Source: the human T2T-CHM13v2.0 reference genome, Homo sapiens. Taken from it: a DNA stretch of 64,000 nucleotides. The stretch lies in NCBI RefSeq assembly GCF_009914755.1, contig NC_060931.1. One strand, 5' to 3'. The notes below the pieces were generated by a model. That model saw only the letters and a list, made by a program, of their open reading frames with translations. It did no database searches and was not told the DNA's origin. Both the position numbers and the translations under genes were made by a program. Shown one piece after another: positions 41,651 through 61,145 of the stretch; the stretch's first letter is position 1; every line of letters starts with the position of its first letter.

Positions 41651-44030
41651 TAGCAGGTATAAAGGAAAAAGCTACAGAGAATGTCTAGAAATATGGTGCT
41701 ATGTCCTTAACACCAGGAGGTAAGATTGTTATGGCTCACAGCCCTTCCCAATGCCTCCAAATTAGGAAAACTAGTCATGGGAGATTATATTAAAGGTGTT
41801 GCTTCTTCTTGCCCATATATTCTGATGGCCTCAAAAGAGACAGCATTTAAATGAGAGAGGGAAATGGGTCATGGTAACCAGGAAGTAAAGTTGGCTTTAA
41901 CACCATGCTCTGAAATGAAATCTGGGTGACATTGCTGGCACATGGAACCAAACAGACCCAGAAGCCTATCAAGTTTCTAAGGTATTGATATTTCAAAAGC
42001 AACCAGAAGCATGGCCTGAAAATGTCCTCAGACTCTCAGACCTATACCTGTAGGAAATGGATACTAAAATTACATGGTCTTTTCAAGACCCACTTCAGAG
42101 GTGGCCTTAAAGCATAACAGACTAGGAAGAATTTCCAAAGGGCAAAATTTGAAATCATAAAGAACATGGGGAAGTACACCATGGTCAGGACAGGGGACCA
42201 TCTCACTTCCTCTCTGGTGGAATAATAATCTCATTGCTATGCAATGTGAAAAGAAAAGAAACAACTTTTCAGTGACTATTAAGTGTATTCCCTTCTTCCT
42301 TTCTTTTCCTAAGACTGCTTATTATAGTTACTCTGATCACACTCTAGATTGTAATCTAGATGTGTTGGTGGATAATAATTTTGTTTTCTAGCCTTCCTCA
42401 TGCAGCCCTAGTGGACCTAACGTGGAGGTCAGAACATCACCTGGAGATACTGTACTTTGAAGTGGGTGCAGAAATTGGATGGGGGTTGGGGTTTTATCCC
42501 TTGGTGAGGGATGAGGGAGTCAATGTGTGAGAGAAGGGTGCAGATGGCTATTTGGTGGCCAAATGGCAGGCACAGATTGCTAATTGCTCACTAAAATTTA
42601 TTTTCTTTTTCCTTGAACATGTCTCTCCAGTCATTTGACATTACCCATTTCTTTTTTGCAATTAGTTGGGTATGGCCAGGTGGCTAGATTTTACCATTAG
42701 AAGGGAATTTGAAGTGCTGAGTACCATTGCTGGTCCTGGGCCTTAAGACATTGGGTACTTCTTTACATTCCCTCTAGTCTTTCTTCTTCCACTTTGACAG
42801 AACACAGACACAGTAGTGACCTAGATTCAACCATGCAGATAACCGCAGTCACCTAGGAATGGTTAGCAATATGAAAGAGCCACTCACTGCTCAAGATTCA
42901 CTCTCTATGCAGCCCCCTCAATGCTCCGTCCCTGGAGGCATTATGAACTCCACCAATAGCTCCCTTGCCTTCTGGCTTCTAGTTCAAAGGGTGGAATAAG
43001 TTAAGTCAGGATATCTATTCCCTCCATGCCCTCTGTGCTGAGCTGTCACAGGTTGGCTTCATCCTTCTACCAATGGCCACAGCATCTACTGGGAGAGTCT
43101 CCACTTTGTCTACCCTCTTCTTGTGCCAGTATCTGCTTCCACTCCTTATTCCTTCAAACCTAGAGATGGTAAGAGCTCCTGGCCTTCCCCTCACCCCACC
43201 TCTTCTATCCCATTGCTAGCACTGGAGTATTGTATTGTGTCTTGTTAATTTCCCTTAGTTTTCCCATCCTTACATCAATAGTCCCCTTAAAGAACTTCCC
43301 TCAATAGCCGTTCTGAGTGTGCCTTCTCTTTCCTGAAGGATTTGATGAGTGGGGTCTCTGAATGACCCCCTCAAGAGAAACTCCCCTACTAATAACTCTC
43401 ACAAGAACTGTTAGATGAGAGAGAAATAAACATCCATGATTTTTAAGCTACTATATTTCTGTTCTATGTGTTATAGTAATTTCGTCTTACCCTAATTAAT
43501 AGAGTATGATATATTTTTTCTAGAAGTTTGTCCATTTCATTAAATTTTCAAATTTGTTGGCATAAAATGATTCATTGACTCCTCTTTCCCTCTCTGTCTA
43601 TAGCATCTACATGTTTTAGTTTTCATTTCTAAAATTGGATATTTGAGCCATTATTTTTCTTCATTGTCTCATCACAGGGGTATTAGTTTTTATCAATCTT
43701 TTTAAAGAATGAACTTTTAAGGTTTGTTGAATCACTCCATTATATGTTCATTTTCTATTTCATTAATTGTACTGGTTATCGTAGCAAATTACTTTGGAAC
43801 TTAGCAGCTAAAAATAATCAGAAATGTTTATCATAACACATTCTTTCTGGGAGCAAGGTGGAAATGGTAGCGTTATTGTATGATCTGACCTTGACAATCA
43901 CACATCATCATTTCTAGAGTATCCTATTGGTTAAACAGGTCAGCCCTATTTGATGTTGTAGGGGGATATGCAAGGGCATGAATACCAGGAAGTGAGGATG
44001 TTGGGGTTCATGTTGGGATTCCGGTATTGG

Positions 44031-44745
44031 GGTTAGAGTAGGTAGTTAGGCAGACATGTGCAGGGAAGGAGAGCCTCCCCCTCCCACTGCCCACCACCAG
44101 GAATGTCAGGTGACCATGAGGTGATGGTCAGGTGGTTATTAAACTGTCTCACTAAAATAATAATTGGATGCAGCTGGCACCAGAGAAAGCCAGTCTCCCA
44201 ATAGATAGAAACTACCTGAAGCTGGTGATCAGCAGCTTCCTGATAAGATCTCAGGATCTTGGCTTGGGTGAGTGGGTCCAAGCATGCGCACTAAGAGGTA
44301 AAATGGCAGAGTTTAACTGGTATATAACCTGCCACTCGATTGGTAAGGGAAAAACACCTCAAGTGAGCATGTGAACAACTTCAGTAAACACACTGCACAT
44401 GCGGCCCCTCCCAAGTGCTGGCAGGCCACTGTGCATGTGGACAGCCTACCCCAAGGGAAGAATCAGGGGAGAAGAAATGCAAACCCCAGAATCATACCAA
44501 TGTATTAAAACCCCAAGTCAAAGGTCACATGAGGCATTTGGATCTCTTAAGTCACCCACTTGACCCTCTTCCAAGTGTACTTTACTTCCTTTCATTCCTG
44601 CTCTAAAACTTAAATAAACTCTCACTCCTGCTAAAAAACTTGCCTCAGTCTCTCACTCTGCCTTATACAAGTAAGATGAATTCTTTCCTTTGAGGAGGCA
44701 AGAATTGAGCTGTTGTAGAGCTGTACAGATTTGCCAGTGCAAAAA
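44031..44745 (+). repeat. 5' LTR (MER50-like)
   Basis: Begins (G)GTTAGAGTAGGTAGTTAGGCAGACATG and aligns by eye end to end with 54142-54844. AATAAA at 44613-44618. Terminal TG and CA are both mutated. Confidence 0.9.
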
Positions 44746-44750
44746 TACTT

Positions 44751-44768
44751 TGCTACCATGACTTGGAT
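44751..44768 (+). promoter_or_regulatory. Primer-binding site, tRNA-His type
   Basis: TGCTACCATGACTTGGAT matches 14/18 of TGGTGCCGTGACTCGGAT (complement of the tRNA-His 3' end), 5 nt after the 5' LTR. Confidence 0.8.
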
Positions 44769-45965
44769 ATATTCTCTACTGGTAAGACATCTCTATGCCT
44801 TGCCTTCTTAGGCTGGAGGCATCCAACCCCCATACCCATACATGGTTTCCTTCTCCCCTTTCATTCTCCTGCTTATTAACTAACCCCCAAAATGGTTCCT
44901 CTCAGTCACAGTAGCTCTGGTCCCCATAGCTGATCTCTCAGCTGGCCCTGATGGTGGCTCACAGGGGTGAATAAAACCTTGGAGACTGCACCAAGTAGAC
45001 CTGAGACAATAACAGCTCTCCTGGATAGGAGGCTCATGAGAGGGGTAGGGCTAAAGCCTAAGACTGTGCAATGTCTGGGGTTTCCTCTCTTTTTCCTACT
45101 AAAATTGGCTTTTTTCCTAAAACCAACACCACCTATTCTGTTTTCTCTCTGTGAATTCTGAAATGGTCTTGCGTACCCACCAGGGGGCAAGTCTGCCTTT
45201 TCCCCGCTTTCACTTTGCATGCCACACGACTTCCTACTCTGCCTTAAACACACACTCCCAGTTTGTTATTTATATGCCTGAAGCTCTTGCTGTTTGCATA
45301 GCAGCAAAGAAATGGGCTTCCTTGTGGATGTCTGTTGGCTCATTTCTAGGACAGACACTTACCAGAACCCTGACTCTGCCAGCTCCTTATGACTTACCAT
45401 ATGCATTTCGTTTATGCTATGCTCCAGGGCCAAGTTTTTTGGTGTCTTTTGATGCTGTTTATCCACTGCATAGGATCTCACTCTGTGGCTTTTTAAGGAC
45501 CCCACCTACTACCACTGCCCCCCCACCTTTTTTTTTTTTTTTTTTTGAGTAAGCAATCCTTAGGGAGGAAGGAAAATTCTTCCTTTGCCATTTGCAAACC
45601 CTTATTCTTCCAAGCCCCAAGTCCTCTGGAGATTCCTCCTTTATGTTAAGAAGGCAAAAAATGCTGCCCTTTTGAATCCAAGGGCTGCTGGTTTTGCAAG
45701 CACATGAAGGCTTTCCGTGGGAATTCTTCTTGCTTCTTCCCATTTCCTCCTGTAGCAGAGGGATTATCTTGCCTGTTGAAGCATTTGTTCTCCATGTTAC
45801 CCCGGGAGGATAAGGAACCCCAAATACAAAATTTTCCCCATTCTTCTGATCACTTCCAGATTCTTCTCAATAGGTATAAGGACCTTCAAGGCCATATTTG
45901 AAGGGAGGAAAGTCCAACCCCTTGCAGCCGTTGGCTGAGAACCAGTCTTCCCGTCTACTTAAAGC

Positions 45966-46251
45966 ACATCATTCTCAGCAAACTAACACAGGAACAGAAA
46001 ATCAAACACTGCATATTCTCACTCATAAGTGGGAGCTGAACAATGAGAACACATGGACACAGGGCGGGGAACATCACACACCGGGGCCTGTCAGGGGGTG
46101 GAGACTAGGGGAGGGATAGCATTAGGAGAAATACCTAATGTAGATGATGGGTTGATGGGTGCACCAAACCACCATGGCACATGTATACCTATGTAACAAA
46201 CCTGAACATTCTGTACATGTACCCCAGAACTTAAAGTATAATTTTAAAAAA
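45966..46251 (+). mobile_element. 5'-truncated L1PA 3' end inserted in the proviral leader
   Basis: Diagnostic L1PA 3'UTR: CTCACTCATAAGTGGGAGCTGAACAATGAGAAC...GGGAGGGATAGCATTAGGAGAAATACCTAATG...AGAACTTAAAGTATAA, then a short A tail. Confidence 0.9.
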
Positions 46252-46806
46252 CCCAACAACTTCTTTGAAAGCCTGAAGAATAATTTCAATGTTTTTACAT
46301 TTAATTTGCCTTTTTCATTAAAGTTTATTCAAATTTTATGCCCCCCAAAATAGGAATATCAGAAAAGAAATAATCATTTTGTTGCTAGAATGCTCCAAGT
46401 GAGGTCACCATAAGGTCATAGAGACAGATATGAGCCAGCCCAAGGCTTCAGGCACAACAGACAAAAGTACTCATAGGACAGAGATGAAGGCTGGTCCCAA
46501 GCTATAGGCACAGATTACCATTAGAATAGGGATGAAGGAAAGCAAGGTTAGGGGTTCCCAATAAGACCAGTTCATTCTGGACCCCAAGGATGAAGAAGGG
46601 GCCCCCTGTTTACTCCAGTATCTCCTTTGTTCTCAAGTGGGTAATCATGATGAGATGGGACCAAGGTTAGGGGTACTTGGTGAGACTGGTTTATTTTGGA
46701 ACTGTAAGGACGAATTGGGGGATGCAATGTTTAGGAAAGGATGATAGGGGAATAAGAGGGAATGCATTCTTTTTTTCTTTTTTTCTCCTCTGTTCTCTCT
46801 TCACAG

Positions 46807-48305
46807 ATGGGTAATTGCCTCTCCATATGACAGGACACACCCCTAGATGCATCCTCAAGAACTGGGAAAAGTTTGACCCCCAAACTCTAAAAAAGAAAAG
46901 GCTAACATTTTTCTGTAATATAGCCTGGGTTGAATCCAAGCTCAGGGACCAGGAATCTTGGCCAGAAAATGAGATCATAAATTTTAATATGATCTATTGA
47001 CTGGATTTGTTTTGCTGGCAGCAGGGAAATTGGGCAAAAATCTCCTATGTACAGGCCTTCATAGTCCTAAGAAACAACCCTGACCTTTGTCAGGCTTGTA
47101 AAATGGATCCAGCAATGATAGCAGCCACAGTCAGGCAGCCCCCTCTGGTTGGTTTGGGAGACCATTATTGTGTTTATCCAGGGCTCAAGCCCCAGAGAAA
47201 CCAAGGGCAGAGCTTAGCTCAAACTCCCCTTCTACCCTATTATATCCAAGTCTCCCAGCCCTGGCTCATTTCCTTCCCTAACCAGGGCCATCCTCTGGAC
47301 ACCACCCCCTTAAGTTATGCCGCTTCAAGAGGTTAGCAGCCCCAGTAGAGCCACTAGGGTCCAAACTCCATTCACTATGCAATACCTGAGCCAAATTAAA
47401 ATGGAACTAGGTAAGTTTATGGAAGACCCTGACAAATACATGAAAGGGTTCCACAAGGTAGGCTTAACATTTAAACTCACCTGGAGGGACCTCTCAGTCA
47501 TACTAGGGCAAACTCTGTCTAAGGGAGAACGTGACTCCATTAAGGAAGTGGCCCAATAATTTGCAAATGCAATGCATATGACTGACCCTGGTGCCTACTC
47601 TGGGGGTGGGGGCGGGTAGGGGGCACAACAGTTTCTCAGGTGGACCTCTTTTGGGATTACAATACCTAGTGGGGCATGTGGACAAGGAACCACATATTCC
47701 TCTATCTGGTAGAAGGAATGAAAGCTAGCAGAACAAAGCCTGTGAACTACAATAAATTGGCCTTAATAGATCAAGGCCTTCTTGAAACCTCCTCTGCTTT
47801 CCTAGGGAGGCTACAAGAGGCCCTAATGAGATATACTAACCTAGACCCAGAGACACCAGAAGGGCAACTGGTCCTAAAGGACCATTTCCTAACTCAGGCA
47901 GCCCCAGATGATTTGGAAGAAACTCCAGAAACTAGCACTGGGTCCCAACACCCCTATGCCTGACACCCTCAAAATAGCTTCCTCAGTCTTTTACAACCAG
48001 GACCAGGAGGAAGAGGAAAGTGTTCAGGAAAAGGAGAAGTGAAAGGAAAAGAGGGAGCTCCAACTATTGGCTGCTCTACGGGTCCATTAGCCCCCTCCAG
48101 GTTGCCCTCAGACAACCCTCCCAGATAACTGACATTGGTGTGAGAAGTCAGGCCACTGGAAGGCAAACAGCCCCAGTGGAGCAGATGGGAAAAAGCCCCG
48201 CATGGCTTGCCCCTCTGCCACAAGCTCAGCCACTGGATCTGAGACTTCTCTGAGGGCCAAAGGGCCCCTGGGACAGAATCCCAACCCCTGATGACCTTGA
48301 GCTGA
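46807..48305 (+). pseudogene. gag: gag pseudogene
   Basis: ATG-GGT (MG myristoylation start). MA-like CILKNWEKFDPQTLKKKRL, CA-like LGKFMEDPDKY and FLGRLQEALMRYT, two degenerate Cys-His knuckle remnants at ~48130-48240. Several stops and frameshifts. Confidence 0.88.
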
Positions 48306-51300
48306 AGGGGCCCTATGGTCTGGCCAGCTCCTGGATTGAACATCACTATTGAGGGGATGAAGCTAAGGGCTGCTTTGGACACGGCAGGTATGACTGTAAG
48401 GTTTCTTTTGGACAAAGGAGCTGCCTGCTCAGTGCTTACCTCTTTTTCTGGGCAATTATCCTCAAATCCTGCCAGGCAATGGGGGTAAATGGGGTGCCCA
48501 TAATATAGAGGTTTGCTCCTTCTTGGTGCTGCCTGTGGGGATAAATGGTATTTTCTCATTCATTTTTAGTGATGCCAGAATGTCCTATGCCTCTTTTGGG
48601 TAGAGACATTTTGTTTAGACTAGGAGTTCAGTTAACCTTTCCTCCAGGGCCAACACCCCCTTTTCCAAATGCAATCTTATTCCTCAAGGAAACCACACAC
48701 AAGGATGAACTGCCCACAGACCTTCCAATTAATCCAGAGGTCTGGGCCCCAGGAATACCAGGAAAGGCTGTAATGGCCATGCCTATAGCAATTCAGCTCA
48801 AGGATCCTTCTAGTTATCCTTGCAGAGGGCAGTTTCCTCTTCAGTTGGAGGCCAAAGAGGGACTTCAGCCCCTGATTTAAAAATTTCTAACACATGGATT
48901 AATATCCTGTAACTCACCCTATAACACCCCTATCTTAACTGTTAAAAAGACTAACGGAGAATACAGGTTAGTCCAGAATCTGTGAGTCATAAATGAGGCA
49001 GTAGTCCGAATACACCCAATGGTCCCCAACCTTTATGTAATTCTAGAAGATTTCCAGATGCTCAGTGGTTTTCGGTCTTAGACTTCAAAAATTTCTTCTG
49101 TATCCCCCTAGACCCATCCTCCCAATTTATATTTGTATTGGAGTTGGAGAATGAAAAAGGAAGAAGTTAACAGCTCACCTGGACAGTGCTTCCACAAGGT
49201 TTCAGAGATAGTCCCCATTTGTTTGGGCAAGCCTTGGCTAGATATTTGCAGGACCTAAGTCTTTATATGGGAGGGCATCTCCTACAGTACATGGATGACC
49301 TGTTAATCTGCTCCCCAACAAGAGAGTTAGGAATCCAACATCTAAATTTCCTTGCAGACAGAAGGTACAAAGTGTCCAAGGCCAAGACACAGCTACTAAG
49401 ACAAGCAATCCAATACCTGGGGATAATCATGAGCCTCAAAGAACACAAGCTTTCTGCAGAATAGATACAGGCAATCCTTAGAATACTACACCAACCACCC
49501 AAAAGCAATTTTGAGCTTTTCTGGGGATCACAAGATACTGCAGACTTTGGATACTGGAATGTGGTGGAATTATTAAATCCTTATATCAGGCTTTAAAAGA
49601 AGGGACTAATAGGGACACAATCTCTGGGAAAAGAATCAGGAGCAAGCCTTTAGGTAGTTAAAAACTGCCCTCTCACAAGCCCCAGCCCTTGAGCTACCCA
49701 TACTAACCAAACCATTTCAGTTTTTCATCACTGAAAAGGCAAGGTATAGCACTAGGAGTTCTAACTGAAACCTTTGGGCCAGTCAAACATGCTGTAGGTT
49801 ATTTTTCAAAGAACCTAGACCCAGCAGCACAATGGTGGCCACATTGCCTCAAGGTAGTGGGTACAGCAGCCCTTATTCTCGAGGAGGACTTCAATATCAC
49901 AATGGGACAATCAATCTGGCTCCTAATGTCCCACCAAATAGACCCTTTATTGAATTTAAAAGGACCATAATGGCTCACTGACAACACATTGATAAAGTAC
50001 CAAGTCTTGTTGTTGGAAAACCCACAGGTAACAGTTGAGCAGTGTTCCACCATTAACCCAGCCCTCTTACTGCCACTACCAGGAGATGATAACTCAACAT
50101 ATTCATGCTGTGAGATTCTTAACAAAATTTATGCCAGCTGGGAAGACTTAAAGGATCAGCCCATAGATAATCCAGACAAAATATGGTTTTCAGATGGCAG
50201 TAGCTTCGTCAGGGATGGAACTAGATATGCAGGGTATGCTACAGAGTCCCATCACCAAGTTGTAGAGACTAAAGCTCTGTCCCCAGGGACCTCAGTGCAA
50301 CTAGCCGAATTCATCACACTAACCAGAGCCCTAAAACTAGGGGAAAGAAAAAGAATAACCATCTATACAGATTCCAAATATGCCTTCTTGGTGCTTCATG
50401 CCCACATGGCTATCTGGAAGGAAAGAAGGTACCTAACAGCTCAGGATGCTCCTATTAAGTATGGGTCTCAAGTCTTAGAGCTACTGGAGGCTGCTCATTT
50501 GCCCCAGGAAGTGGCAGTAGAGCATTGTGAAGGACACCACAGGGGCTTCTATTAAACTACATGGGGAAACAGGTTAGCTGACAAAAATGCTGAAGAGGCA
50601 GCCATGTCAAATGATACCTTCATGGGAGACTTGTTCCTCTCTCTCCCCAGTGAACTGCCCTTTCTCCAATACACTAAGGAAGAAATAGATTGGTCCAGCC
50701 AACATGGGTATAAAGAAGAAACCAGTGGATGGTACAGATTGGAAGAATTTTTCCATCTACCTCCCAATGGAAAGCCTCCCAGGGAAAAGCTTTCCATTGG
50801 GAGGTAGATGGAGAAATTGGAGGAGAGATGAAGAAATTGGCAGGTAGATGGAGAAAAGTGTGGGGAATCTTGGTTGATGGCAGAATTGGTTGTGGGTGTA
50901 TGTTTGGTAAGTTTGTTGGTTAGGGTCTACAGTGAGAGTCACACTGCAAACCGTACTGGGAAGAGCCCCTATATCTATTCCATTTTTCTTCTCAGCCATA
51001 ATGCAAATAGGGGCTATTCCCATTAAAGTGATATTAGAAAAGATGGGTCCAAAAATGGAACCTCCCAATGGAAAGTCATTAAGAGTTTTTACAACTTCTT
51101 CCACCTTGCAAAGGACAGTCTAGGACAAATTTGTAAATAAGTGTTCAGTGGGAAGGGACTAAACAAAACCATTCAACAGGTTTGTCAAGCCTATACCCTA
51201 TGTACCATAAATAATTCCCAGAGAGGGAAGCCCCCTCCATTAATAAGTCCAATCCAGAGGAGAAGTACATACCCTGGGGAGGACTGGCAAATGGACTTCA

Positions 51301-52130
51301 CTCATCTCCCTGCAGGCTTCAGGTAAAAGTACCTCTTGGTCTGTGTAGATACCTTCACAAAATGGGTAGAAGCCTGCTCCACAAAGACTGAGAAGGCACA
51401 GGAGGTAGCTAAATTCCTCCTAAAGGAATGCATTTCCTGGTTTGAGCTACCCAGGTCATTGCAAAGTGACAATGGTCCATCCTTTATTTCCTAAGTAACT
51501 CAACAGGTTAGTAGGGCCGTTAGTAAGCATAAATGTACCTTCACTTTGCCTGGTGATCACAACCTTCAGGAAAAGTGGAAAGAACTAAAGAAACCCTCGA
51601 ACACATACTCAATAAACTCTGTCAGAAAACAGCACAGCCATGGGTGGACCTCTTACTCTTAGCCCCACTTTGGATCCATATTGCCCCTCAGACTCCCTTG
51701 CAATTAATCCCCTTTGAGGCCTTATATGGTAAGCCATTCCTATATTCAGACTTAATGCTAGATGAAAAAACTGCCAAAATCACCTACTGTGTCTCTTCTT
51801 TAGCAGGTTTCCAACAGGCTCTCCAGGAATTTTGGTTACAAAGAAAGCCAAAATCAGAAGGGGAAAAATACCAGCCTCTGTATCCTCCAGGCTCACTAGT
51901 TCTTATTAAAGCTTGGAGAGATGGAACTCTGAATTCCCAACTAACTCCAGTCCGAAGGGGCCTCTTCACCCTTAGAGCCATTAAAGTATCAGAGATTGTC
52001 AGTTGGATACATCACACCTGAGTGAAGCCATGGAAAGGCTCCAAAACACCAGATCTGGAAGCAATGCCCTCAGCTCCAGAACACACTTGAGAGGCACTGG
52101 AAAATCTGTGATTCCTCTTTAAGTGAAAAG
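48306..52130 (+). pseudogene. pol: pro-pol pseudogene (protease, RT, RNase H, integrase)
   Basis: FLLDKGA (DTG mutated), PLLGRDIL, LPQGFRDSP, YMDD, WFSDGSS, YTDSKYAF, GEDWQMDFTH, LQSDNGPSF. Many stops and frameshifts. End coordinate approximate. Confidence 0.92.
50775..51059 (-). other. Templated insertion in pol: fold-back, short repeats and inverted env fragment
   Basis: ACCTCCCAATGGAAAG duplicated at 50759-50774 and 51060-51075. 50859-51059 is the reverse complement of env 52628-52828 with 27 differences in 201 nt (hand count). Confidence 0.92.
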
Positions 52131-52310
52131 ATAAGTAATGCCCCTCAACATCCTTTCTCTTCAGAGTAAGATGATCTTAATATTAGAAATCTTACTTGCA
52201 ATTGCTCTGATTATTATCACTATTTTAACCCTAACTTGTACACCACTAGGCCTTCCAGTGGCAGCTTTCTTTGTGACCAGTTTCTCTCTTCACAGTCACC
52301 TTAGGTTGCT

Positions 52311-54106
52311 ATGGGCCTGCTCCAGTTGGTTCTCAATCTCACCCCTTTACTAGCAGGACACTACCATCCTGATTTCCCATTATTGGAAAAAGCTCAGTAA
52401 CTGCTCCAAAGCACAGGATCCCCTTACTCCACCAATTGCTGGTTATGTACCAGCTCTTCTGCTAAAACGGCAGGGAGAGCTTATTCAGCCTCACCAAGAG
52501 ATTGGACAAGTATAAAGGCAGAACTGCATATTTTCTATCAATGGGAGGCTAATGGGAGATGTTTGGGCCTGCAAATAGCCTTCTTGCAAAAGTAAAGCAA
52601 GATTTCCCTGATATCTGCAAAGAACCTCCCAATTTTGGATCCATCTTTTCTAATACCACTTTAATGGGACTAGCCCCTATTTGCATTACGGCCAATAAGA
52701 AAAATGGAATGGATGTTGGGGCTCTTTCCAGTACAGTTAGCAATGTTACTCTCACTGTAGATCCTAACCAACGAACTTGCCAAACGTACACCCACAACTA
52801 ATTCTACCATCACACAAGATTTCCCAAACCTTCAAATATTACCTTTCCTCTGGGAACTTTGCTGGATAAATCCACCCAGTTTTGCCAGGGACACCCAAGC
52901 TCCTGCAGTATTCAAAATTTCTGGTTCCGGCCTGCTGATACAACCAATGCCTGCAAATTGCCAATCTCATTTCTACAGAAGAATGGGTTCTATTGGACCA
53001 GACTCAAAATTCTCTTTTTTAGGAAAATAAAACCAAGGGAACTAAACAGAACCAAAGCCCATGCACATAAGTCTTAGCAGGCATGACTATAGCCACCAGC
53101 TACCTGGGTGTGTTGGCAGCCTTGGCATTTCTTGGAGCTGTCCTCACCCCCTTGTTTCATTTTTACATCTCTACTTATCTTAAAACCCAAGGAGCCTTCT
53201 ATATTTGTGGCCAGCCAGTTCACCAGTGCCTCCCCACTAACCGGACTGGAACTTGTACCATAGGCTATGTATCCCTAGACATCTTCATAGTCCCTGGCAA
53301 TCTCTCTCTTCCAGCACCAATCTACAGGCATTCCATCTTTTCCAGGATGAGGAGGGCTATCCAATTAATTCTCCTTCTCACAGGACTTGGTATTATAGCC
53401 AGTATGGGAACCAGAATTGCTAGAATCACAAAAGCCTCCTTGACCCATAGCCAGCCCTCAAGGGAAATAGCCAAGAACATTGATGCTACGGCTAAAACCT
53501 TAACAACTGTGCAAGAACAAATTGACTCTTTGGCAGCTATAGTCCTCCAAAATTATCAGGAGTTAGACAAGTTAACAGCAGCACAGAGAGAAACTTGTTT
53601 AGCCTTAGGTGAAAAATTTTGCTTATGGGTCAATCAATCAGGAAAAGTACAATATCAGACAACTCCTAAATTGAGCCTCCAGTTTACTGGAACAAGCCTC
53701 TCAGGGTTGGTTAGATTGGGAAGGAAGCTGAAAATGCTTCTCCTGAGTTATTCCCCTTTTAGGCCCACTTGTTAGTCTCCTACTTTTGCTCCGTTTTGGG
53801 CCATGTCTTCTAAATCTAGCAACCCGATTTGTCTCCTCACACCTTCAGGCCATCAAGCTTCAGATGATCCTCAGTGAGAGATACCATCGTCTCAATATTC
53901 AAGAGTCACACTTCTACAGAGGACCACTAGACTGCCCATCAGTGAGACATGAAAGAAGCGAAATCCTGCCCCTGTCTCCCTTGGACCTTGCTGGATACCA
54001 CTTTCACCAACCCACAAAGCCACCCTGCCCTGACAGCAAGACGCCAAGACCCACAGAACAATCATCACCGTCCTTCTGTCAGCAGGAAGCAGTTACAGAA
54101 GACTGA
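52311..54106 (+). pseudogene. env: env pseudogene, syncytin-2 (ERVFRD-1) paralogue
   Basis: MGLLQLVLNLTPLLAGHYHPDFPLLEKAQ*LLQSTGSPYSTNCWLC..., GMTIATSYLG, LKTQGAFYICGQ, furin site RMRR, ISD LQNYQELDKLTAAQ, FGPCLLN. Splice acceptor TTTCTCTCTTCACAG ends at 52295. Stops at 52398 and 52799 plus frameshifts. Confidence 0.92.
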
Positions 54107-54141
54107 CCTTTGTCCATTTTCCCAAAGAATTGGGTCGGGAA

Positions 54142-54844
54142 TGTTAGAGTAGGTAGTTTGGCAGACATGAACAGGGCAAAAGAGGCACCCACCCCGCCGC
54201 TGCTTCCATGAATCTCAGGCAACCATCAGATGATCAGGTGATGGCCAGGTGATTGTTAAGCTGTCTCACTAAAATAGTAATTGGTTGCAGCTGATGCCAG
54301 GGACAGGCAGGCTCCCAACAGATAGAAAACACCTGAAACAAGATCAGCAGCTTCCCGATAAGGTCTCAGGAGTTGGGTGAGTGGGCCCGAGCATGCATAC
54401 TAAGAGGCAAAATGGTGGAGTTTAACTGGTATATGACCTTCCTCTAGGAATGCTCAACTGGTAAGGGAAAAATGCCTCAAGTGAGCACACACAAAACTTC
54501 AATAAACACATTGCATATGCAGCCCCTCCCAAGTGCTGGCAGGCCACTGCACATGTGGAAATCCCACCTTAAGGAAAAATCAAGGAAGGAGAGATGCAAA
54601 CCTCAGAACCAGGCCAATGTATAAAAACCCCAAGTGAAGGGTTGGATGAGGCACTTGGATCTCTTAAGTTGCCCGCTTGGCCCTCTTCCAAGTATACTTT
54701 CTTTCCTTTCACTCCTGCTCTCATTCCTGTTCAAAAACTTGCCTTGGTCTCTCACTCTACCTTATACCCCTTAGGTAAATTATTTCCTTTGAGGAGGCAA
54801 GAATCAAGTTGCTGCAGACCCATATGGATCCACCACTGCTAACA
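54142..54844 (+). repeat. 3' LTR (MER50-like)
   Basis: TGTTAG...CTAACA termini, preceded by purine-rich AAAGAATTGGGTCGGGAA. TATAAAA near 54620. Confidence 0.92.
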
Positions 54845-56231
54845 ATCCTAGAGCTATCTACTATGTTAGTTTTTGCTCTGATGTTTACTATTTCCCTTCT
54901 TGAACTTTCTTTGGTCTTACTTTGCTGTTTTCTTCTATCAACAAAAGGATGATATTACCTCTTTAATATCAGTTTTTCCTCTTTTCTATTGTACTCATTT
55001 AAGAGTATAAATTTTACTTAAATTTAATTTTAGCTGTTTCCTATAAGATTTTATCTGTTGGAAAATTTTTATTATTCAATTAAAATCACTTTCTTATTTC
55101 CATTTTACTTCTTTTTCTTTTTTGACTCGCAGATTATTTAGAAATGTTACATAATTTTTCAACATGCAAATTTTCTAGGTTTTTAAAAAATTGAGTCTAA
55201 GCTTGATTGCATTGTAGTCAGACAATATATACTATTATCAAGACTCGCTTGACAGCCAGGTATATAGTCAATTTTTGTAGATGCTCCTTGTGAGCTTGAA
55301 ATAATGTGTATCTGCAATTACTTGGCACAAGGTTCTATATAATCCTATTAGGTTAAGTTTGCAAATTGTGTGTTTTAGGTACTCTCTATTCTCACTAATC
55401 TTTTTAAAAAAATTTTGCTAGTTCTACCAATAAACAATGAATGCCAAGTTAAAATCAATCATGATGACAGTACGACTGTTTGTATTTTTCTTGTAGTAGT
55501 TCAGCAAATTTTTGCTGTGTATATTTTAAGGTTGTATTAGAAGGAACATGTACACTTAAAATCACTCTATCTTCTGGGTGGTCCCTTCTATCCATGGTAA
55601 TACTTTTACTTTTAAAGTCTATTTTGATTGAACAATATAGTTCTTCCCACCCTTGGCTCCTTTTAAAGTCTTTGTGTTTGATGCTCTGCAGTTTCACCAA
55701 GATATGGCTAGGTATGAATTTCTAAGTCTCAGCATGATTAAAATATTTTCTCTACCCAACTCTTTTCTTTTTTTCCTTTCCTTCTGGGGATCCAATTTGT
55801 CCTATGCTAGATCTTCTCACTTTTAGCCTCCATGTCTTTTTTAGAGTTTCCTCTCTCAGTTTTTCCGTGTTATACTGAATATAATCTCCCATGAACTATT
55901 TTTCATTTCATTAATTATCTCTTCAGATCTGCTACATTTCCTGTTAAATTCACCCATTAAAGGTTTTTGTTTCTGTCTCTCATTTTCTTTTCTTTTTTTT
56001 TTTTGCTCCCTAATGTCCTTGACACAACCCCACACTGTTTCCGAAAAACTGACCTCAAAAACTTAAGAATGAATTCAGGTCCCTTTCCCCCTTTCCAATA
56101 ATTAGCCACATGTATCACATAACCCATAACTTTATCTGAGCCTGAGCATGTTTTGGCCTGTCTTTATTTGCAACCTACATGACCTCACCAGTCATCTACC
56201 TTAAGAGGGTGTATTTAGAGGCTTTGTGTGG

Positions 56232-56500
56232 GGCCAGGTGCAGTGGCTGATGCCTGTAATCCCAGCACTTTGGGAGGCTGAGGCAAGTAGATTGCTTGAA
56301 CCCAGGGGTTTGAGACTAGCCTGGGCAATGTGGGGAAACCCTATCTATTAAAAAAAAAAAATTAACTGGGTGTGGTGGTGCACGCCTGCAGTCCCAGCTG
56401 CTCAGGTAGGGGGATTGCTTAAGCCCAGGAGGTCAAAGCTGCAGTGAGCCATGATCATGCCATTGCACTCCAGCCTGGGTGACAGAGAGAAATCCTGTCT

Positions 56501-56532
<32 letters not shown>
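56232..56532 (+). mobile_element. AluJ-like
   Basis: GGATTGCTTAAGCCCAGGAGGTCAAAGCTGCAGTGAGCCATGATC (J-type), long pure A tail, TSD AGGCTTTG(T/A)GTG. Confidence 0.9.
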
Positions 56533-56535
<3 letters not shown>

Positions 56536-57910
56536 TTTGAGTGACTATCCCGAGGCATTTGAGTCCCGAAGATTAGAAGTCATCCTCATAGCCTTTCCAA
56601 TGGAGTAACACTTTTTGTGTGCTTTGAAATTAAAAAGTGGAAAATGTTTCCCTCAGATTGTGAGACCCTTTATAAATGTATATGTGAACAATTTTTAAGC
56701 TGCTATACCTCAATAATAAAATGTTTCCTGGCTACTCATTAAGTTTTAAATTTCTATTACTAGATTTTCATTTCTGAAAGTTCAATTTTATATTTTTCAA
56801 ATCTGTTGCAATTTTTTTATACAATTTACTGTACCCTGGGTTTAAAATTGTCTTTTATTTCTTTAAACTCTGTAAGTATAGTTATTGAGCCTCTATTTGA
56901 TCATTTCTGTATTTGGGGTCTCTGCAAGTCTGTTTCTGCCATCACTTGTTTCTGCTGGCTTTTGTTTCTCCTGCTCTGTTTCTTTGGTTATTTATTTATT
57001 TATTTATTTACTATGATTTGTTGCTCATTGCTTAGATAATTATTTGTTAGGTTTCTTAAGATCTAGGATAAAATCCAGAGAGGATATGTGTTTGTTTCTG
57101 CCAGGTGAGTAAATATACTACAAATATGGTATGACTTTATACTAAATTTACAGCTTGAGTTTTTTTTTTTTTTCCGTTCAATCAGTGGGAATTTGGCTCA
57201 AAATCTGAGTGATGATAAGCAGATGGATATCAACAACAATCTTGAATTTATTTCATCAATATTAAATTAATCAGCAATATTAAATGTATTTATTTTACTT
57301 TTCTCAGTCCCAAGACAATTTTCTTTTTAGGTTTCTGGGAGTCGAAATATTGAACAGATTTATATTTATTTCAACCTTAGAGGAATATTTAGCCCTTTGG
57401 GGTCAGAGGGTTTTGGTTTTATAGGTGTTGGTCCCTTATTAGACTCCTCATTTTAGGATGAACTGTGATTTGGCTTCTGTTCCCCTTGCCCTCTGAGACA
57501 TTAAAACCCAAAGCACAAGATCAATCAGTTAGGATGCCCTCAGGACAAGACCGAATTCAATCCTGCTTACCTTTCTGGATTTCTGCTTTCCTTTAAATTA
57601 TGATTTGCTGATTCTATATTATCTTGTGTGATATTTGATGCTTTCAAAAATATTTTCTCTATTATCTTTTGTTGTTTATATTAGGCTGTTTTGTTCTGAA
57701 TTATTTAGCCTGTTGTATTGCTAGAAATCAAAGTTGTCCCTTTAAGATATAAATAAGTTTATGTCATTTATTTAAAAGAATTCTACTAGACTTTGAATTT
57801 ACTGATTAATTTGGAGAGAATTTATATCCTTATAAGTTCACCTTATCCAGGAGCCTAGAATATGTATCTACATATTCAAAATATTTTCTAGACCTTTTAT
57901 TAGAGTTTGA

Positions 57911-58244
<334 letters not shown>

Positions 58245-58456
58245 AGTTAACATATTTATTTCTTAGATGCTGTATAGATTTTCTTGCTATTGTGAGTGCT
58301 ATCTTCTCTATGATTCAAATTCATAATTGTCATTGCTATTAAATGTTATTATTTAGCTTGTATCAGGCAACACTGTTGAGTATCCTAATGGTATATCTCT
58401 TGGTTCTATTGTTTTATTTTCAAGTAGATGATTATGTAATCTACAAACAATAATAG

Positions 58457-58795
<339 letters not shown>

Positions 58796-61145
58796 ATTTC
58801 TTTTTCTTATCTTATAGCATTGGTCAGGACTTCCAATCCTATGTTAAACAACAGTCATGGTAAAATAGAGAATCTTTGTCTTATTTCCAAACGCAAAGGA
58901 AATACCCCAGCATTTTGTGAAGCATTAGTTCCTGCATTTGATCACTTTCCCCAAAAACTAGATAGAGTGGTTTCTGCTACCTGAAACTAAAACCTGTTTG
59001 ATGCCAAAGGAATACAGAATGAGAATTTTTCTGTGATTATAGAATCAGCATCGAAGGGCTCAAAGATAAAAACAACAAAGCACCAAGTACCCCACATTCT
59101 GAAAATTGCTGAAAATACTTGAAGTCAAATATCACAACCAAAGCTTGCTTGTGGCTCCTGGAAGAGTTCATCTACCTCTAACCCTCACCCTTGTATTCCC
59201 AATTCATGTCTCTGATAATTAAGCAGAAAGACTAGGGAAGAGAAGAGAATGAATTATCAAAATGCAGCATTTATTGTGAGGAGCGATTCTTCTCCTTCCC
59301 AAGCCAAGTGAGTGAAGAGGCTCAAGATAATCACATAAAGATTGGGGGTGCTTATGCAAAGGGAAAATTGGTTGAGATAACTGTCTAGGCTGCAGGCCTG
59401 TTGGTAAACCTGTGCCTCCCTATGAAGGGGAGAAAAAACTTATTGAAGGGAGATGACAAGGCAAAGAGAGGATGATAATGGGACAATCAACAACCCTATC
59501 CTTTGGAAAGAATGGGTAAATTGCCTACTCCAGGAGGAATCCAAGCTTCAACCACTTTGCCAAGGCCTCTCCCAAAGAGAGGACACACTGAGTGAGGGGA
59601 TCCCAGTAGCTGAAGGTTGAGACTGACCTACTTGGAGCAAGAGCAGGGGTGAAGTGTAAAAGAGATTATGCTGGATCTTCCACTGGCATTTCCAGGAGAA
59701 AACCAACTTAATAGTCCATTGGTCTTAGCCACAGAACAAGGAATAAAAGATACTAATCACATGTCCATTAGCAAAAGACTAAGTTCTTTCCACTCTATCC
59801 TGTTCCAATTCTGAAAAAGCTAAAACCATGAAGTGTAACAGAACTTATTTTTTCCACAGCCTCATGTAATTTTGTTTTTGACTCCCCACACATTGTTTGG
59901 AAGCACAAATCAATATATAAGGCAATTCCAAAGCCCCCTCCCAATCCTGGGAGTTTTCTCTAAAATCCAGCAGGGAGAGCTAAAGCATCATGGGAGACAG
60001 CTGGTCTTTGATGTCACCGTCTAAACTTCGGTCTTCATTTGAATCAGATGACTACTTATTTTCTTTTTCCTGACAGCAAGACCTTTTTAAGTCTATCAGT
60101 TCTTTCTCTGCTAACCCCCATACCCCTCTGGGCACGTGGGAATTTGCTTCTGTGCCAAGTTCAAGTGTAGGTGTGATGCCATCCCCAGTAAATCACACTA
60201 GCATTTCTTCTCTGTTTTTTCATCAGGCTGAGCACAGAGAATCCCTAAGGCTTTGTGACTTTCCCAGGCCCTCCCAGGGAAAGGACACATTAGTCCCTCA
60301 GCAATCAGATCACCCAAATTTCCTGAGGAAAGTTTTATCCCCCAGCCTTTCTAACTTGGCCTGAGGAGAAGGCAGAGCAGGATCAATTCTCAGGAACTTA
60401 CCAGCATCTAAATTATCTTTGTCTTTTCCTATCTCTCTTTATTCTCCCCTAGTCTGGTAAACATTATAATATAGTAAGTATGAGGGCTAGGGACTAAAAC
60501 AAAGACTATTATATTCTTCAAAACTGACTCTACTTATTTTCTTAAATTATGTCTTTAATGTCTTTTTTATTCTGTGTTCTCTTGATAGCTAGGCTTTTGA
60601 AATTTAAAATCTAATAACTGACTATAGCATTCTGCTGAATGTTTATTCCTCTTTGAAGCAATGAAAACTACAAAGTCTTATAGTCAAAATCACAATGGGT
60701 TACACTGGAAAAAAGGAGAATTTTACCCTGCAAAACTTTTCAGCAAACCTACATAAAACTGAGCAATGTTCTTTTGCATATAAAATGGTCTCCCCAAAAG
60801 AGAAAAAGCATCAACCAACCACTCCCGAATAAAAGTCACAAAAAGGGAAGGGAGGTGCTTGGGTGCTCTGACTTTAATTAATGGTTTGTTTGCTAAAGGT
60901 TGTACTGGTTTGGGACCAAAAAAGGACACTTCTATTCATTCTCATCAAATTAAGTTTAAGGTTGGTCTTCAAGATAGGACATTAGGCCAGAACCATTCTA
61001 CTCATTTCAGATTCCTTAGGGCCAAATTTACTGGAGGTTGCTTAATAACTGTTTATTGAATAAACCAGAAGGGTAAGATAAAGGCAGTCAAAGATAACTG
61101 CCTTAAGGCTTCATCTAAGATTCAGAGCCCAGTAGGTTAGCAAAA

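What the first reader, a model, noticed from the sequence alone, without database searches (positions are those of the whole stretch)
50859..51059. Inverted, stop-free copy of syncytin-2-like env SU inserted into pol of the same provirus
Seen: 50859-51059 is the reverse complement of env 52628-52828 with no indels and 27 substitutions in 201 nt (~87%, hand count). On the minus strand it reads openly as IFGPIFSNITLMGIAPICIMAEKKNG...NQQTYQTYTHNQFCHQPRFP, whereas the resident copy has a stop (THN*) and more changes. Knowledge (from memory): syncytin-2 reads IFGPIF...NQQTYQTYTHNQFRHQPRFP, so the insert is nearer to it at many positions. Inference: the donor was either this provirus at or soon after integration, or a different FRD locus or RNA, possibly the syncytin-2 lineage. 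Retroviral genomes do not normally carry antisense env inside pol.
Basis: partly seen in the sequence, partly recalled or inferred. Interest (0 to 1): 0.85.

Follow-up and report, generated by a model that had tools for sequence, protein, structure and literature searches.

The report
Private inverted env scar in pol
One decayed HERV-FRD provirus between PON1 and PON3 carries a one-off 300-base insertion in its integrase gene, copied backwards from its own envelope gene by a polymerase that switched templates; it is an ordinary mutational scar and did not come from syncytin-2.

Summary
Window 50855-51058 is the reverse complement of env 52629-52832: 204 nt, no indels, 87%.

It is part of a roughly 300-nt insertion in the integrase N-terminus, between RNase H and the integrase core. 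None of the 12 other HERV-FRD copies examined in this genome has the insertion. Its junction block matches nothing else in the genome. It is therefore not a family trait.

The insertion is a mosaic:
- a 15-mer stutter;
- an inverted copy of the pol target site, which forms a 30-nt palindrome;
- three inverted 20-mers;
- the inverted env piece;
- a re-copied 16-mer.

The donor is this provirus's own env lineage. Insert and resident env form a clade (support 90/93) and share 4 bases found in no other copy. A clade of insert plus ERVFRD-1 is rejected (AU p 0.021).

The two arms differ less than the two LTRs do (0.126 against 0.185; p about 0.03-0.05). This weakly dates the event after integration.

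Best reading: serial template switching, by host replication or repair (about 0.6) or by reverse transcriptase (about 0.3). The open frame is not notable. Low interest.

The parts
44032..44736 (+). 5' LTR of the HERV-FRD (MER50-type) provirus
   Evidence: Direct repeats D2, D4-D7 and D9 with the 3' LTR; MAFFT alignment; edges read. LTR against LTR: 125 differences in 676 aligned sites.
49971..50555 (+). pol fragment, RNase H domain
   Evidence: Pfam PF00075 RNase_H, E 1.5e-19.
50746..50775 (+). pol target site in the integrase N-terminal region, and left arm of a 30-nt palindrome. It contains the 16-mer ACCTCCCAATGGAAAG at 50759-50774. It lacks 7 nt that all 12 other copies have here.
   Evidence: alignment of the site in other copies; D1, I1.
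50775..50789 (+). Degenerate 15-nt tandem copy (stutter) of the preceding pol 15-mer; it forms the loop of the palindrome
   Evidence: TRF: period 15, 2.1 copies, 81% matches, 50760-50790; D1 second copy at 75%.
50789..50858 (-). Inverted copies of the pol target site: the right arm of the palindrome (50789-50818, 97% complementary to 50746-50775), running into three tandem 20-mers (50796-50856)
   Evidence: I1, I3, D2; TRF period 20, 3.0 copies. The DNA hairpin is -31 kcal/mol, z -7.8. The block is unique in the genome.
50855..51058 (-). Inverted copy of env SU, 204 nt, no indels
   Evidence: I1, 87%; alignment with 10 env copies; distances; tree.
51060..51075 (+). Second, exact copy of the 16-mer ACCTCCCAATGGAAAG, where the normal pol sequence resumes. 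In the four-point model this means the return point lies before the departure point.
   Evidence: D1, 100%; other copies join query 163 to query 462 with 4-6 nt between.
51327..51494 (+). pol fragment, integrase catalytic core
   Evidence: Pfam PF00665 rve, E 7.7e-11.
52624..52633 (+). 10-mer ACCTCCCAAT in env, directly 5' of the copied segment. It is identical to the pol target-site 10-mer. Base 52632 is a resident-private change; the insert and the 9 other copies have T there, so the original match was 9 of 10.
   Evidence: 4 exact occurrences in 64 kb, at 50759+, 50796-, 51060+ and 52624+; column 239.
52629..52832 (+). Resident env SU segment, the source (or sister) of the inverted copy. 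It lies within the annotated ERVFRD-1-like env pseudogene 52111-54114.
   Evidence: the annotation line was supplied with the finding.
53071..53775 (+). env TM-region fragment
   Evidence: Pfam PF00429 TLV_coat, E 2.8e-22.
54142..54835 (+). 3' LTR

Best explanation
This is a one-off mutational scar private to the chr7 HERV-FRD provirus. While copying the integrase N-terminal region of pol, a polymerase left its template. It stuttered on the local sequence and switched to the complementary strand, which made an inverted copy of the target site and three inverted 20-mers. It then copied about 204 nt of the provirus's own env, 1.6-1.9 kb away, in inverted orientation. Finally it returned to pol 16 nt before the point it had left. 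The excursion was guided by a 9-10-nt patch (ACCTCCCAAT) shared by the pol site and the env breakpoint.

Shown: the anatomy, the privacy of the insertion to this locus, and the cis (own-lineage) donor.

Inferred: the enzyme and the date. I commit to host DNA replication or repair (serial template switching of the FoSTeS/MMBIR type) some time after integration, at roughly two-thirds of the provirus's age.

The insertion does nothing useful. It interrupts an already decayed integrase frame and leaves a 204-bp inverted repeat.

The confidence of 0.6 is for the whole statement, including the host enzyme. For the shown parts alone (private, cis-templated, inverted template-switch scar) it would be about 0.9.
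For: Privacy:
- 12 of 12 other family copies examined have an uninterrupted site (11, chrX 74.7 Mb).
- In one search their matches to the two flanks are 4-6 nt apart.
- The block 50770-50875 hits only itself in the 3.1-Gb assembly.

Cis donor:
- Insert and resident form a clade, 90/93, with a shared branch of 0.037.
- 4 columns are exclusive to the pair, against 0 exclusive with ERVFRD-1.
- The AU test rejects insert+ERVFRD-1 (p 0.021).

Template-switch anatomy:
- 15-mer x2.1 and 20-mer x3.0 arrays.
- A 30-nt palindrome, 97% complementary.
- An exact 16-mer at both ends.
- The exact 10-mer ACCTCCCAAT occurs only 4 times in 64 kb: three times in or beside the insert and once abutting the env breakpoint.
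- No poly(A) at either end.

Date:
- Arms differ at 25/198 sites (K2P 0.140); LTRs differ at 125/676 (K2P 0.218). Fisher p is 0.054, and 0.033 without CpG sites. The ratio is about 0.64.
- Independently, in a star-like tree the shared chr7 branch (0.037) plus the mean of the two tips (0.073) comes to 0.11, which is half the LTR distance. That is what a post-integration split at about 2/3 of the age predicts (the arithmetic is mine).

Mechanistic precedent (passages read):
- Human germline templated insertions are inverted copies of nearby templates and can use up to five templates (PMC8421209).
- The four-point template-switch model includes events whose return point precedes the departure point (PMC7954356).
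Against: - The dating rests on 198 nt and is only about 2 sigma from 'same age as the LTRs'. With the blastn LTR alignment (115 mismatches in about 659 aligned sites) the gap is smaller.
- The two arms are unequal: 17 resident-private against 7 insert-private changes, p 0.064. The resident arm alone looks as old as integration.
- The shared branch could be viral-lineage change made before integration.
- Known germline templated insertions were searched for only within 100 bp of their template (PMC8421209). A template 1.6-1.9 kb away and a 204-nt copy are at the large end for that class.
- I could not reconstruct one unique path. At least one junction, the turn at the palindrome centre, has no clear microhomology.
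- Inversion-bearing defective proviruses are common after reverse transcription in HIV-1: 6% of 531 sequences (PMC6235535, passage read). So the prior for a reverse-transcriptase origin is not small.
- No primate orthologues could be examined with these tools.
Confidence: 0.6

Rival explanations
1. The same structure, made by reverse transcriptase during the single infection cycle that produced this provirus. During plus-strand DNA synthesis the nascent strand left the minus-strand DNA in pol. It copied plus-sense templates (itself, residual or co-packaged RNA, or a displaced plus strand) backwards through the pol site and then through env. It returned to pol at the shared 10-mer. The provirus was integrated by virion-supplied integrase, so a broken integrase gene was no obstacle.
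For: - The donor is the provirus's own lineage.
- The event is old: arm divergence is 0.126, and the resident arm's private changes (17/198 = 0.086) equal half the LTR divergence.
- Reverse transcriptase is a low-processivity, template-switching enzyme (general knowledge).
- 'Inversion sequences' are a recognised class of defective HIV-1 provirus: 6% of 531 sequences (PMC6235535, passages read).
- A co-packaged sibling RNA as donor could explain the 17-against-7 asymmetry.
Against: - Arms are less diverged than LTRs (Fisher p 0.054; non-CpG 0.033).
- The insert arm has only 7 private changes, where about 17-18 are expected if it dated from integration (the expectation is my arithmetic).
- The 30-nt palindrome arms differ at 1 of 30 sites.
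- A first-strand (minus-strand) version is hard to build. The sense-oriented pol copies would need a minus-sense template of a region not yet synthesised (inference).
- No second locus carries the rearrangement, so there is no sign that it ever existed in a replicating genome.
Confidence: 0.3
2. Foreign donor: the env piece came from another HERV-FRD locus or RNA, possibly the syncytin-2 (ERVFRD-1) lineage, by retroposition or ectopic repair.
For: - The insert is closer to chr6 ERVFRD-1 than the resident env is: 27 differences against 37 in 198 sites.
- A 16-nt repeat flanks the insert, within the size range of L1-type target-site duplications (the range is recalled).
Against: - Insert and resident form a clade, 90/93.
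- 4 exclusive shared columns with the resident, 0 with ERVFRD-1.
- The AU test rejects insert+ERVFRD-1 (p 0.021).
- The insert also contains copies of the pol target site itself, and its env breakpoint abuts a 10-mer shared with that site. This points to a local templated event.
- There is no poly(A).
Confidence: 0.03
3. Two or more separate events. For example, an env insertion (direct or inverted) came first, and independent slippage or palindrome formation at the pol site came later.
For: - The palindrome arms (1 difference in 30) and the 16-mers (0 in 16) are more alike than the env arms (25 in 198). That could mean a younger local event.
- Several decompositions of the pol-site copies are equally parsimonious.
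Against: - All the extra pieces are contiguous, and all copies of the pol site share the same 7-nt difference from the family.
- Short repeats are too small for dating, and their boundaries are chosen by similarity.
- A single multi-switch event needs fewer independent coincidences at one site.
Confidence: 0.05
4. Exapted function. Either the 120-aa minus-strand ORF encodes an SU-derived peptide, or the inverted repeat yields a hairpin or antisense RNA that acts on syncytin-2.
For: - The frame is open.
- The arms would form a strong RNA duplex: -303 kcal/mol against -72 for shuffled partners.
- The longest exact run with ERVFRD-1 env is 30 nt.
Against: - No Pfam family matches the ORF.
- 4 of 8 decayed copies are equally stop-free in this segment.
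- The insert accumulates changes, including amino-acid-changing ones.
- There are no expression data.
- Any inverted duplication forms a duplex.
Confidence: 0.02

Closest known systems
Template-switch mutations and MMBIR/FoSTeS templated insertions in human and great-ape genomes (PMC7954356, PMC8421209; passages read)
   Same: - An inverted copy of nearby sequence inserted at the departure site.
- Several templates used in one event.
- Return to the original template close to, here 16 nt before, the departure point.
- Creation of a perfect or near-perfect local palindrome.
- Microhomology at switch points.
   Different: - The main template lies 1.6-1.9 kb away and the copied tract is 204 nt. 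The published short-range searches looked within about 100 bp or a single fork.
- One switch is next to a 9-10-nt shared patch rather than 2-5 nt.
- The enzyme cannot be shown here.
Defective HIV-1 proviruses with 'inversion sequences' (FLIPS protocol, PMC6235535; passages read)
   Same: - A retroviral provirus carrying an internal stretch that aligns only when reverse-complemented.
- It renders the provirus defective.
- It is a plausible product of aberrant strand transfer.
   Different: - Here nothing large is deleted and the inverted piece is an extra copy (a duplication), not a flipped segment.
- The dating weakly puts it after integration.
- This is a gamma-like ERV tens of millions of years old.
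ERVFRD-1 (syncytin-2) env on chr6
   Same: The inverted piece is homologous to the SU part of this gene: 27 differences in 198 nt.
   Different: - It is not derived from it.
- It is antisense, 204 nt only, non-coding context, with no sign of constraint.
L1-mediated retrocopy insertion (features recalled, not read from a paper)
   Same: A flanking direct repeat of 16 nt.
   Different: - No poly(A).
- No A/T-rich nick site.
- The insert contains the target site's own sequence and a cis donor.

Membership tests
HERV-FRD (MER50-int type) provirus | Paired LTRs flanking gag-pro-pol-env with gamma-type domains; env homologous to ERVFRD-1 | tested here: met
   LTR pair. Pfam hits: RVP (weak), RVT_1, RNase_H, rve, TLV_coat. 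env is 85% identical to chr6 ERVFRD-1 over 701 nt.
Family-wide trait of HERV-FRD (present in the consensus) | The same insertion present in other genomic copies | tested here: not met
   0 of 12 other copies examined have it. The junction block is unique in the genome. The Dfam consensus itself could not be consulted.
Copy derived from the syncytin-2 / other-locus lineage | Insert groups with that lineage and shares its private bases | tested here: not met
   0 exclusive columns with ERVFRD-1; 4 with the resident. AU p 0.021 against the clade.
Template-switch / templated insertion (four-point model, MMBIR-type) | Inserted tract is the reverse complement of a nearby template in cis | tested here: met
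   (1570 nt between the arms); the palindrome with the target site; own-lineage donor.
Template-switch / templated insertion (four-point model, MMBIR-type) | Microhomology at switch points and return to the original template | tested here: inconclusive
   Return with a 16-nt re-copy. The 10-mer patch sits at one env breakpoint. Other junctions show about 1-3 nt, or nothing clear after about 13% decay.
Template-switch / templated insertion (four-point model, MMBIR-type) | Made by host replication or repair polymerases after integration | tested here: inconclusive
   Arms at 0.126 against LTRs at 0.185, p 0.054 / 0.033. Orthologues are not available.
RT-generated inversion-type defective provirus | Rearrangement dates from the moment of integration and is present in all orthologues | tested here: inconclusive
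   The divergence test leans against it at about 2 sigma. The resident arm alone fits it. Orthologues are not testable with these tools.
L1-mediated retrocopy | 3' poly(A) next to the target-site duplication; donor RNA from elsewhere | tested here: not met
   No A-run at either end; cis donor.
Protein-coding exaptation | Open frame kept by selection | tested here: not met
   4 of 8 decayed copies also lack stops in these 66 codons; no Pfam hit.

The most novel reading that the evidence does not exclude
The provirus is still transcribed (from its LTR, or by read-through between PON3 and PON1). The 204-bp inverted repeat then folds into a long dsRNA hairpin whose antisense arm keeps a 30-nt perfect match to ERVFRD-1 mRNA. 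The locus would act as a natural hairpin or antisense regulator, or an ADAR/Dicer substrate, bearing on syncytin-2. A milder novel reading: it is a fossil, roughly 30-50 million years old, of the 'inversion' class of reverse-transcription errors seen today in HIV-1 reservoirs.
Probability: 0.02. Interest if true: 0.65.

Novelty: new member of a known kind. Interest (0 to 1): 0.15.

Why it matters
It matters little for biology. It shows that an eye-catching 'antisense env inside pol' is a private rearrangement of one dead provirus, not a viral feature and not a syncytin-2 derivative.

It has modest value as a clean, datable example of a multi-template inverted insertion whose template lies more than 1.5 kb away and whose switch is guided by a 9-10-nt shared patch. 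If orthologues show it was present at integration, it would be an ancient example of a reverse-transcription inversion error.

It also warns annotators that the env-like hit at 50855-51058 is not a second env gene.

Tried and rejected
- **Rfam scan of the chrX 74.7 Mb stretch:** I hoped to name its extra 270 nt. It gave 0 matches. Reading the sequence showed an unrelated repeat about 110 nt downstream of an uninterrupted site.
- **Target-site duplication of the provirus:** the 4-6 nt beside the two LTRs do not match clearly after decay. I therefore could not confirm in that way that the two LTRs belong to one integration.
- **APOBEC- or ADAR-type bias in the arm differences:** no G-to-A excess. 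Three resident A-to-G changes fall within 14 nt (52773, 52779, 52786), with no mirror signal on the insert arm. I treat this as noise.
- **PMC12657518 (term search only):** 0 occurrences of 'inversion', 'inverted' or 'microhomology', so it gave no precedent.
- **Literature on this locus:** HERV-FRD + MER50 gave 6 papers. HERV-FRD/provirus/PON1 gave 138 papers holding at least 2 of the 3 terms, and none of the 15 listed contains PON1. I saw search listings only and found no description of this locus. That is not proof that none exists.
- **Unique path of template switches:** I tried to derive a single step-by-step path under minus-strand RT, plus-strand RT, fork-switching and break-repair models. 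No model explains every junction, so I give only the common skeleton.
- **First filing of the report:** returned for a missing confidence field.
Full report

Yes. The repeat finder on 44000-60000 gives inverted pair I1: 50855-51058 against 52629-52832, 204 nt, ungapped, 87% complementary, 1570 nt between the arms.

The minus-strand frame 50757..51119 is open for 120 aa and carries the quoted peptide. The resident frame stops after ...THN.

In a MAFFT alignment with nine other genomic env copies, the insert aligns over a 198-nt core without gaps to the resident env. There are 25 differences: 17 transitions and 8 transversions.

**2. Context**

The surrounding element is a full-length, decayed HERV-FRD-type provirus.
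- 5' LTR 44032-44736 and 3' LTR 54142-54835.
- Pfam finds RVP (weak), RVT_1, RNase_H (49971-50555), the rve integrase core (51327-51494) and TLV_coat (53071-53775).
- The insert therefore lies in the integrase N-terminal region, between RNase H and the integrase core.
- The resident env is the annotated ERVFRD-1-like pseudogene. It is 85% identical to chr6 ERVFRD-1 over 701 nt.

**3. How big is the novelty, and is it a family trait?**

I searched the window's own 3.1-Gb assembly with 50600-51300 (25 candidates, all scored, 38 matches).
- Every other copy matched query 1-163 and query 462-701 with only 4-6 nt between them.
- Each matched the env-like middle part only at its own env, about 1.5 kb away and on the opposite strand.

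Alignment of the site confirms an uninterrupted pol site in 11 of 11 copies: chr3, chr4, chr6, chr9, chr12, chr14 (two copies), chrX (two) and chrY (two).
- The twelfth copy, chrX 74.7 Mb, looked as if it had about 270 extra bases.
- Reading it shows an uninterrupted site and an unrelated repeat about 110 nt further on.

So 0 of 12 other copies carry the insertion. A search with the junction block alone (50770-50875) found only itself and its own palindromic partner.

These counts are lower bounds on family size. One search scored 40 of 169 candidates, and the unscored ones were in the class of short hits to query 603-701.

**4. Anatomy of the roughly 300-nt block (plus strand)**

- **50746-50775:** the pol target site, containing the 16-mer ACCTCCCAATGGAAAG at 50759-50774.
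- **50775-50789:** a degenerate 15-nt tandem copy (TRF period 15, 2.1 copies).
- **50789-50818:** the reverse complement of 50746-50775 (30 nt, 97%). It makes a hairpin of -31 kcal/mol, z -7.8.
- **50796-50856:** this arm runs into three tandem 20-mers (TRF period 20, 3.0 copies).
- **About 50859-51058:** after about 2-4 nt comes the inverted env.
- **51060-51075:** the 16-mer again, exact, followed by normal pol.

All chr7 copies of the pol site lack 7 nt that all 12 other copies have.

The exact 10-mer ACCTCCCAAT occurs four times in the 64-kb window: 50759+, 50796-, 51060+ and 52624+. The last one abuts the 5' end of the copied env segment. One base of that env 10-mer is a later resident-private change (column 239), so the original match was 9 of 10.

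There is no poly(A).

The block is 301 nt long if counted from one 16-mer to the next (50775-51075). That is not a multiple of three, so it interrupts the integrase frame.

**5. Who was the donor?**

Distances over the 198-nt core:

| Comparison | Differences |
|---|---|
| Insert vs resident env | 25 |
| Insert vs chr6 ERVFRD-1 | 27 |
| Insert vs the other copies | 31-46 |
| Resident env vs ERVFRD-1 | 37 |

- Four columns have a base shared by insert and resident and by none of the nine other copies.
- The insert shares such an exclusive base with ERVFRD-1 at 0 columns, with chr14 26 Mb at 2, and with chr14 36 Mb at 1.
- An IQ-TREE tree of all 11 rows (none left out; 198 columns) joins insert and resident with UFboot 90 / SH-aLRT 93. 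This is not 'starred' by the tool's criterion. The other copies form a star.
- The AU test rejects a tree that joins insert and ERVFRD-1: delta lnL 16.6, p 0.021.

The donor is therefore the chr7 lineage. The syncytin-2 idea fails.

The insert looks closer to ERVFRD-1 only because the resident arm has more private changes. With ERVFRD-1 as third taxon the counts are 19 shared, 17 resident-private and 7 insert-private. The 17-against-7 split is not significant (binomial p 0.064), and I have no better explanation for it than chance.

**6. When did it happen?**

| Pair | Differences | p | K2P | Non-CpG |
|---|---|---|---|---|
| LTR vs LTR | 125/676 | 0.185 | 0.218 | 117/660 |
| Insert vs resident | 25/198 | 0.126 | 0.140 | 21/190 |

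- Fisher p is 0.054 for all sites and 0.033 for non-CpG sites.
- The blastn LTR alignment gives a slightly lower LTR figure: 115 mismatches in about 659 aligned sites.
- The ratio of about 0.64 has a standard error of roughly 0.14 by my arithmetic. So 'same age as integration' is about 2 sigma away.
- The tree gives a second, partly independent hint. The shared chr7 branch (0.037) plus the mean tip length (0.073) equals half the LTR distance (0.109). That is expected if the shared branch is post-integration history.
- With an assumed neutral rate of 2.2e-9 per site per year (general knowledge, not a tool result), the provirus is about 50 My old and the duplication about 30 My old. Both figures carry wide errors.

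**7. Mechanism**

The mosaic has the signature of a polymerase making an excursion by serial template switches:
- local stutters;
- a strand switch that creates a palindrome;
- an inverted copy of a second template in cis;
- a return slightly upstream of the departure point;
- a shared 9-10-mer where the env template meets the pol site.

One path that fits the junctions is as follows.
1. The nascent strand reaches the 16-mer in pol and slips once (15-mer).
2. It switches to the complementary strand and copies the site backwards, slipping twice more (20-mers).
3. It moves to plus-sense env and copies it backwards to the edge of the shared 10-mer.
4. There the env-bearing strand can pair with the pol site. 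The nascent strand resumes on the original template at the start of the 10-mer, so it re-copies 16 nt.

I could not make any single model explain every junction. After about 13% decay, microhomologies of 1-3 nt are not reliable.

**Which polymerase?**

For host replication or repair:
- The dating in section 6 points this way.
- Both template polarities are available everywhere in duplex DNA.
- Human germline templated insertions are inverted copies of nearby templates and may use up to five templates (PMC8421209, passages).
- The four-point template-switch model includes events whose return point precedes the departure point (PMC7954356, passages).

For reverse transcriptase:
- The enzyme switches templates readily (general knowledge).
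- A virion-supplied integrase makes a broken integrase gene harmless for that one integration.
- 6% of 531 HIV-1 proviral sequences carried inversion sequences (PMC6235535, passages).

A first-strand RT path seems excluded, because it would need a minus-sense template of a pol region not yet synthesised (inference). A plus-strand path is feasible.

I put host replication or repair at about 0.6, RT at about 0.3, and the remainder on multi-step or other origins.

**8. Function**

None is indicated.
- The ORF has no Pfam family.
- The stop-free state is shared by 4 of 8 other decayed copies over the same 66 codons. Of those four, chrX 74.7 Mb has no indel, chr4 has an in-frame 15-nt insertion, and chr14 26 Mb and chr9 have small indels.
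- The two arms would pair strongly in a transcript: -303 kcal/mol against -72 ± 6 for 30 shuffled partners. That is true of any inverted duplication.
- No expression data were available.

**9. Comparison with what is known, and novelty**

The element is a member of the HERV-FRD family. The insertion is an instance of a known mutational class (template-switch or templated inverted insertion). It is unusual only in the distance to its template and the length of the tract.

I found no description of this locus in print (listings only). Supplementary tables of HERV catalogues, which I did not open, might list the provirus.

**10. Verdict**

It is an ordinary structural scar: interest 0.15.

Noticed in passing
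window 50760-50762 (all chr7 copies of the pol site, also 50796-50856 and 51060): All chr7 copies of the pol target site lack 7 nt that the 12 other family copies have between '...CTACC' and 'CTCCCAATGG'. The loss therefore predates or accompanies the rearrangement. It shifts the integrase frame on its own.
   Followed up: partly
window 52773, 52779, 52786: Three resident-private A-to-G changes fall within 14 nt of the env arm. There is no mirrored signal on the insert arm. They are probably noise, though an inverted repeat is a potential ADAR substrate.
   Followed up: partly
window 45964-46260 and about 45520-45545: An Alu-like masked repeat and a long T/A run interrupt the gag region of the same provirus. 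This is an ordinary later insertion.
   Followed up: no
window 56226-56542, 57940-58267, 58483-58816: Three Alu-type repeats downstream of the provirus form mutual inverted and direct repeats (I2-I7, D1, D3, D8).
   Followed up: no
L041 (chrX 88.7 Mb) and L042 (chrY 3.5 Mb): These two HERV-FRD copies are near-identical sisters (tree branches 0 and 0.031, support 100/100). They share a 19-22-nt A-rich insertion in the env segment. This is consistent with an X-to-Y segmental transfer rather than two integrations.
   Followed up: no
L063 (chrX 74.7 Mb), about locus 330-600 on the minus strand: This copy has an unrelated repeat of about 270 nt inserted about 110 nt downstream of the site that is hit in chr7. 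At first sight it mimicked a second occupied site.
   Followed up: yes
window 44026-44031 and 54836-54841: The bases flanking the two LTRs do not show a clear target-site duplication after decay. The first two bases of the 5' LTR also differ from the 3' LTR's TG.
   Followed up: partly
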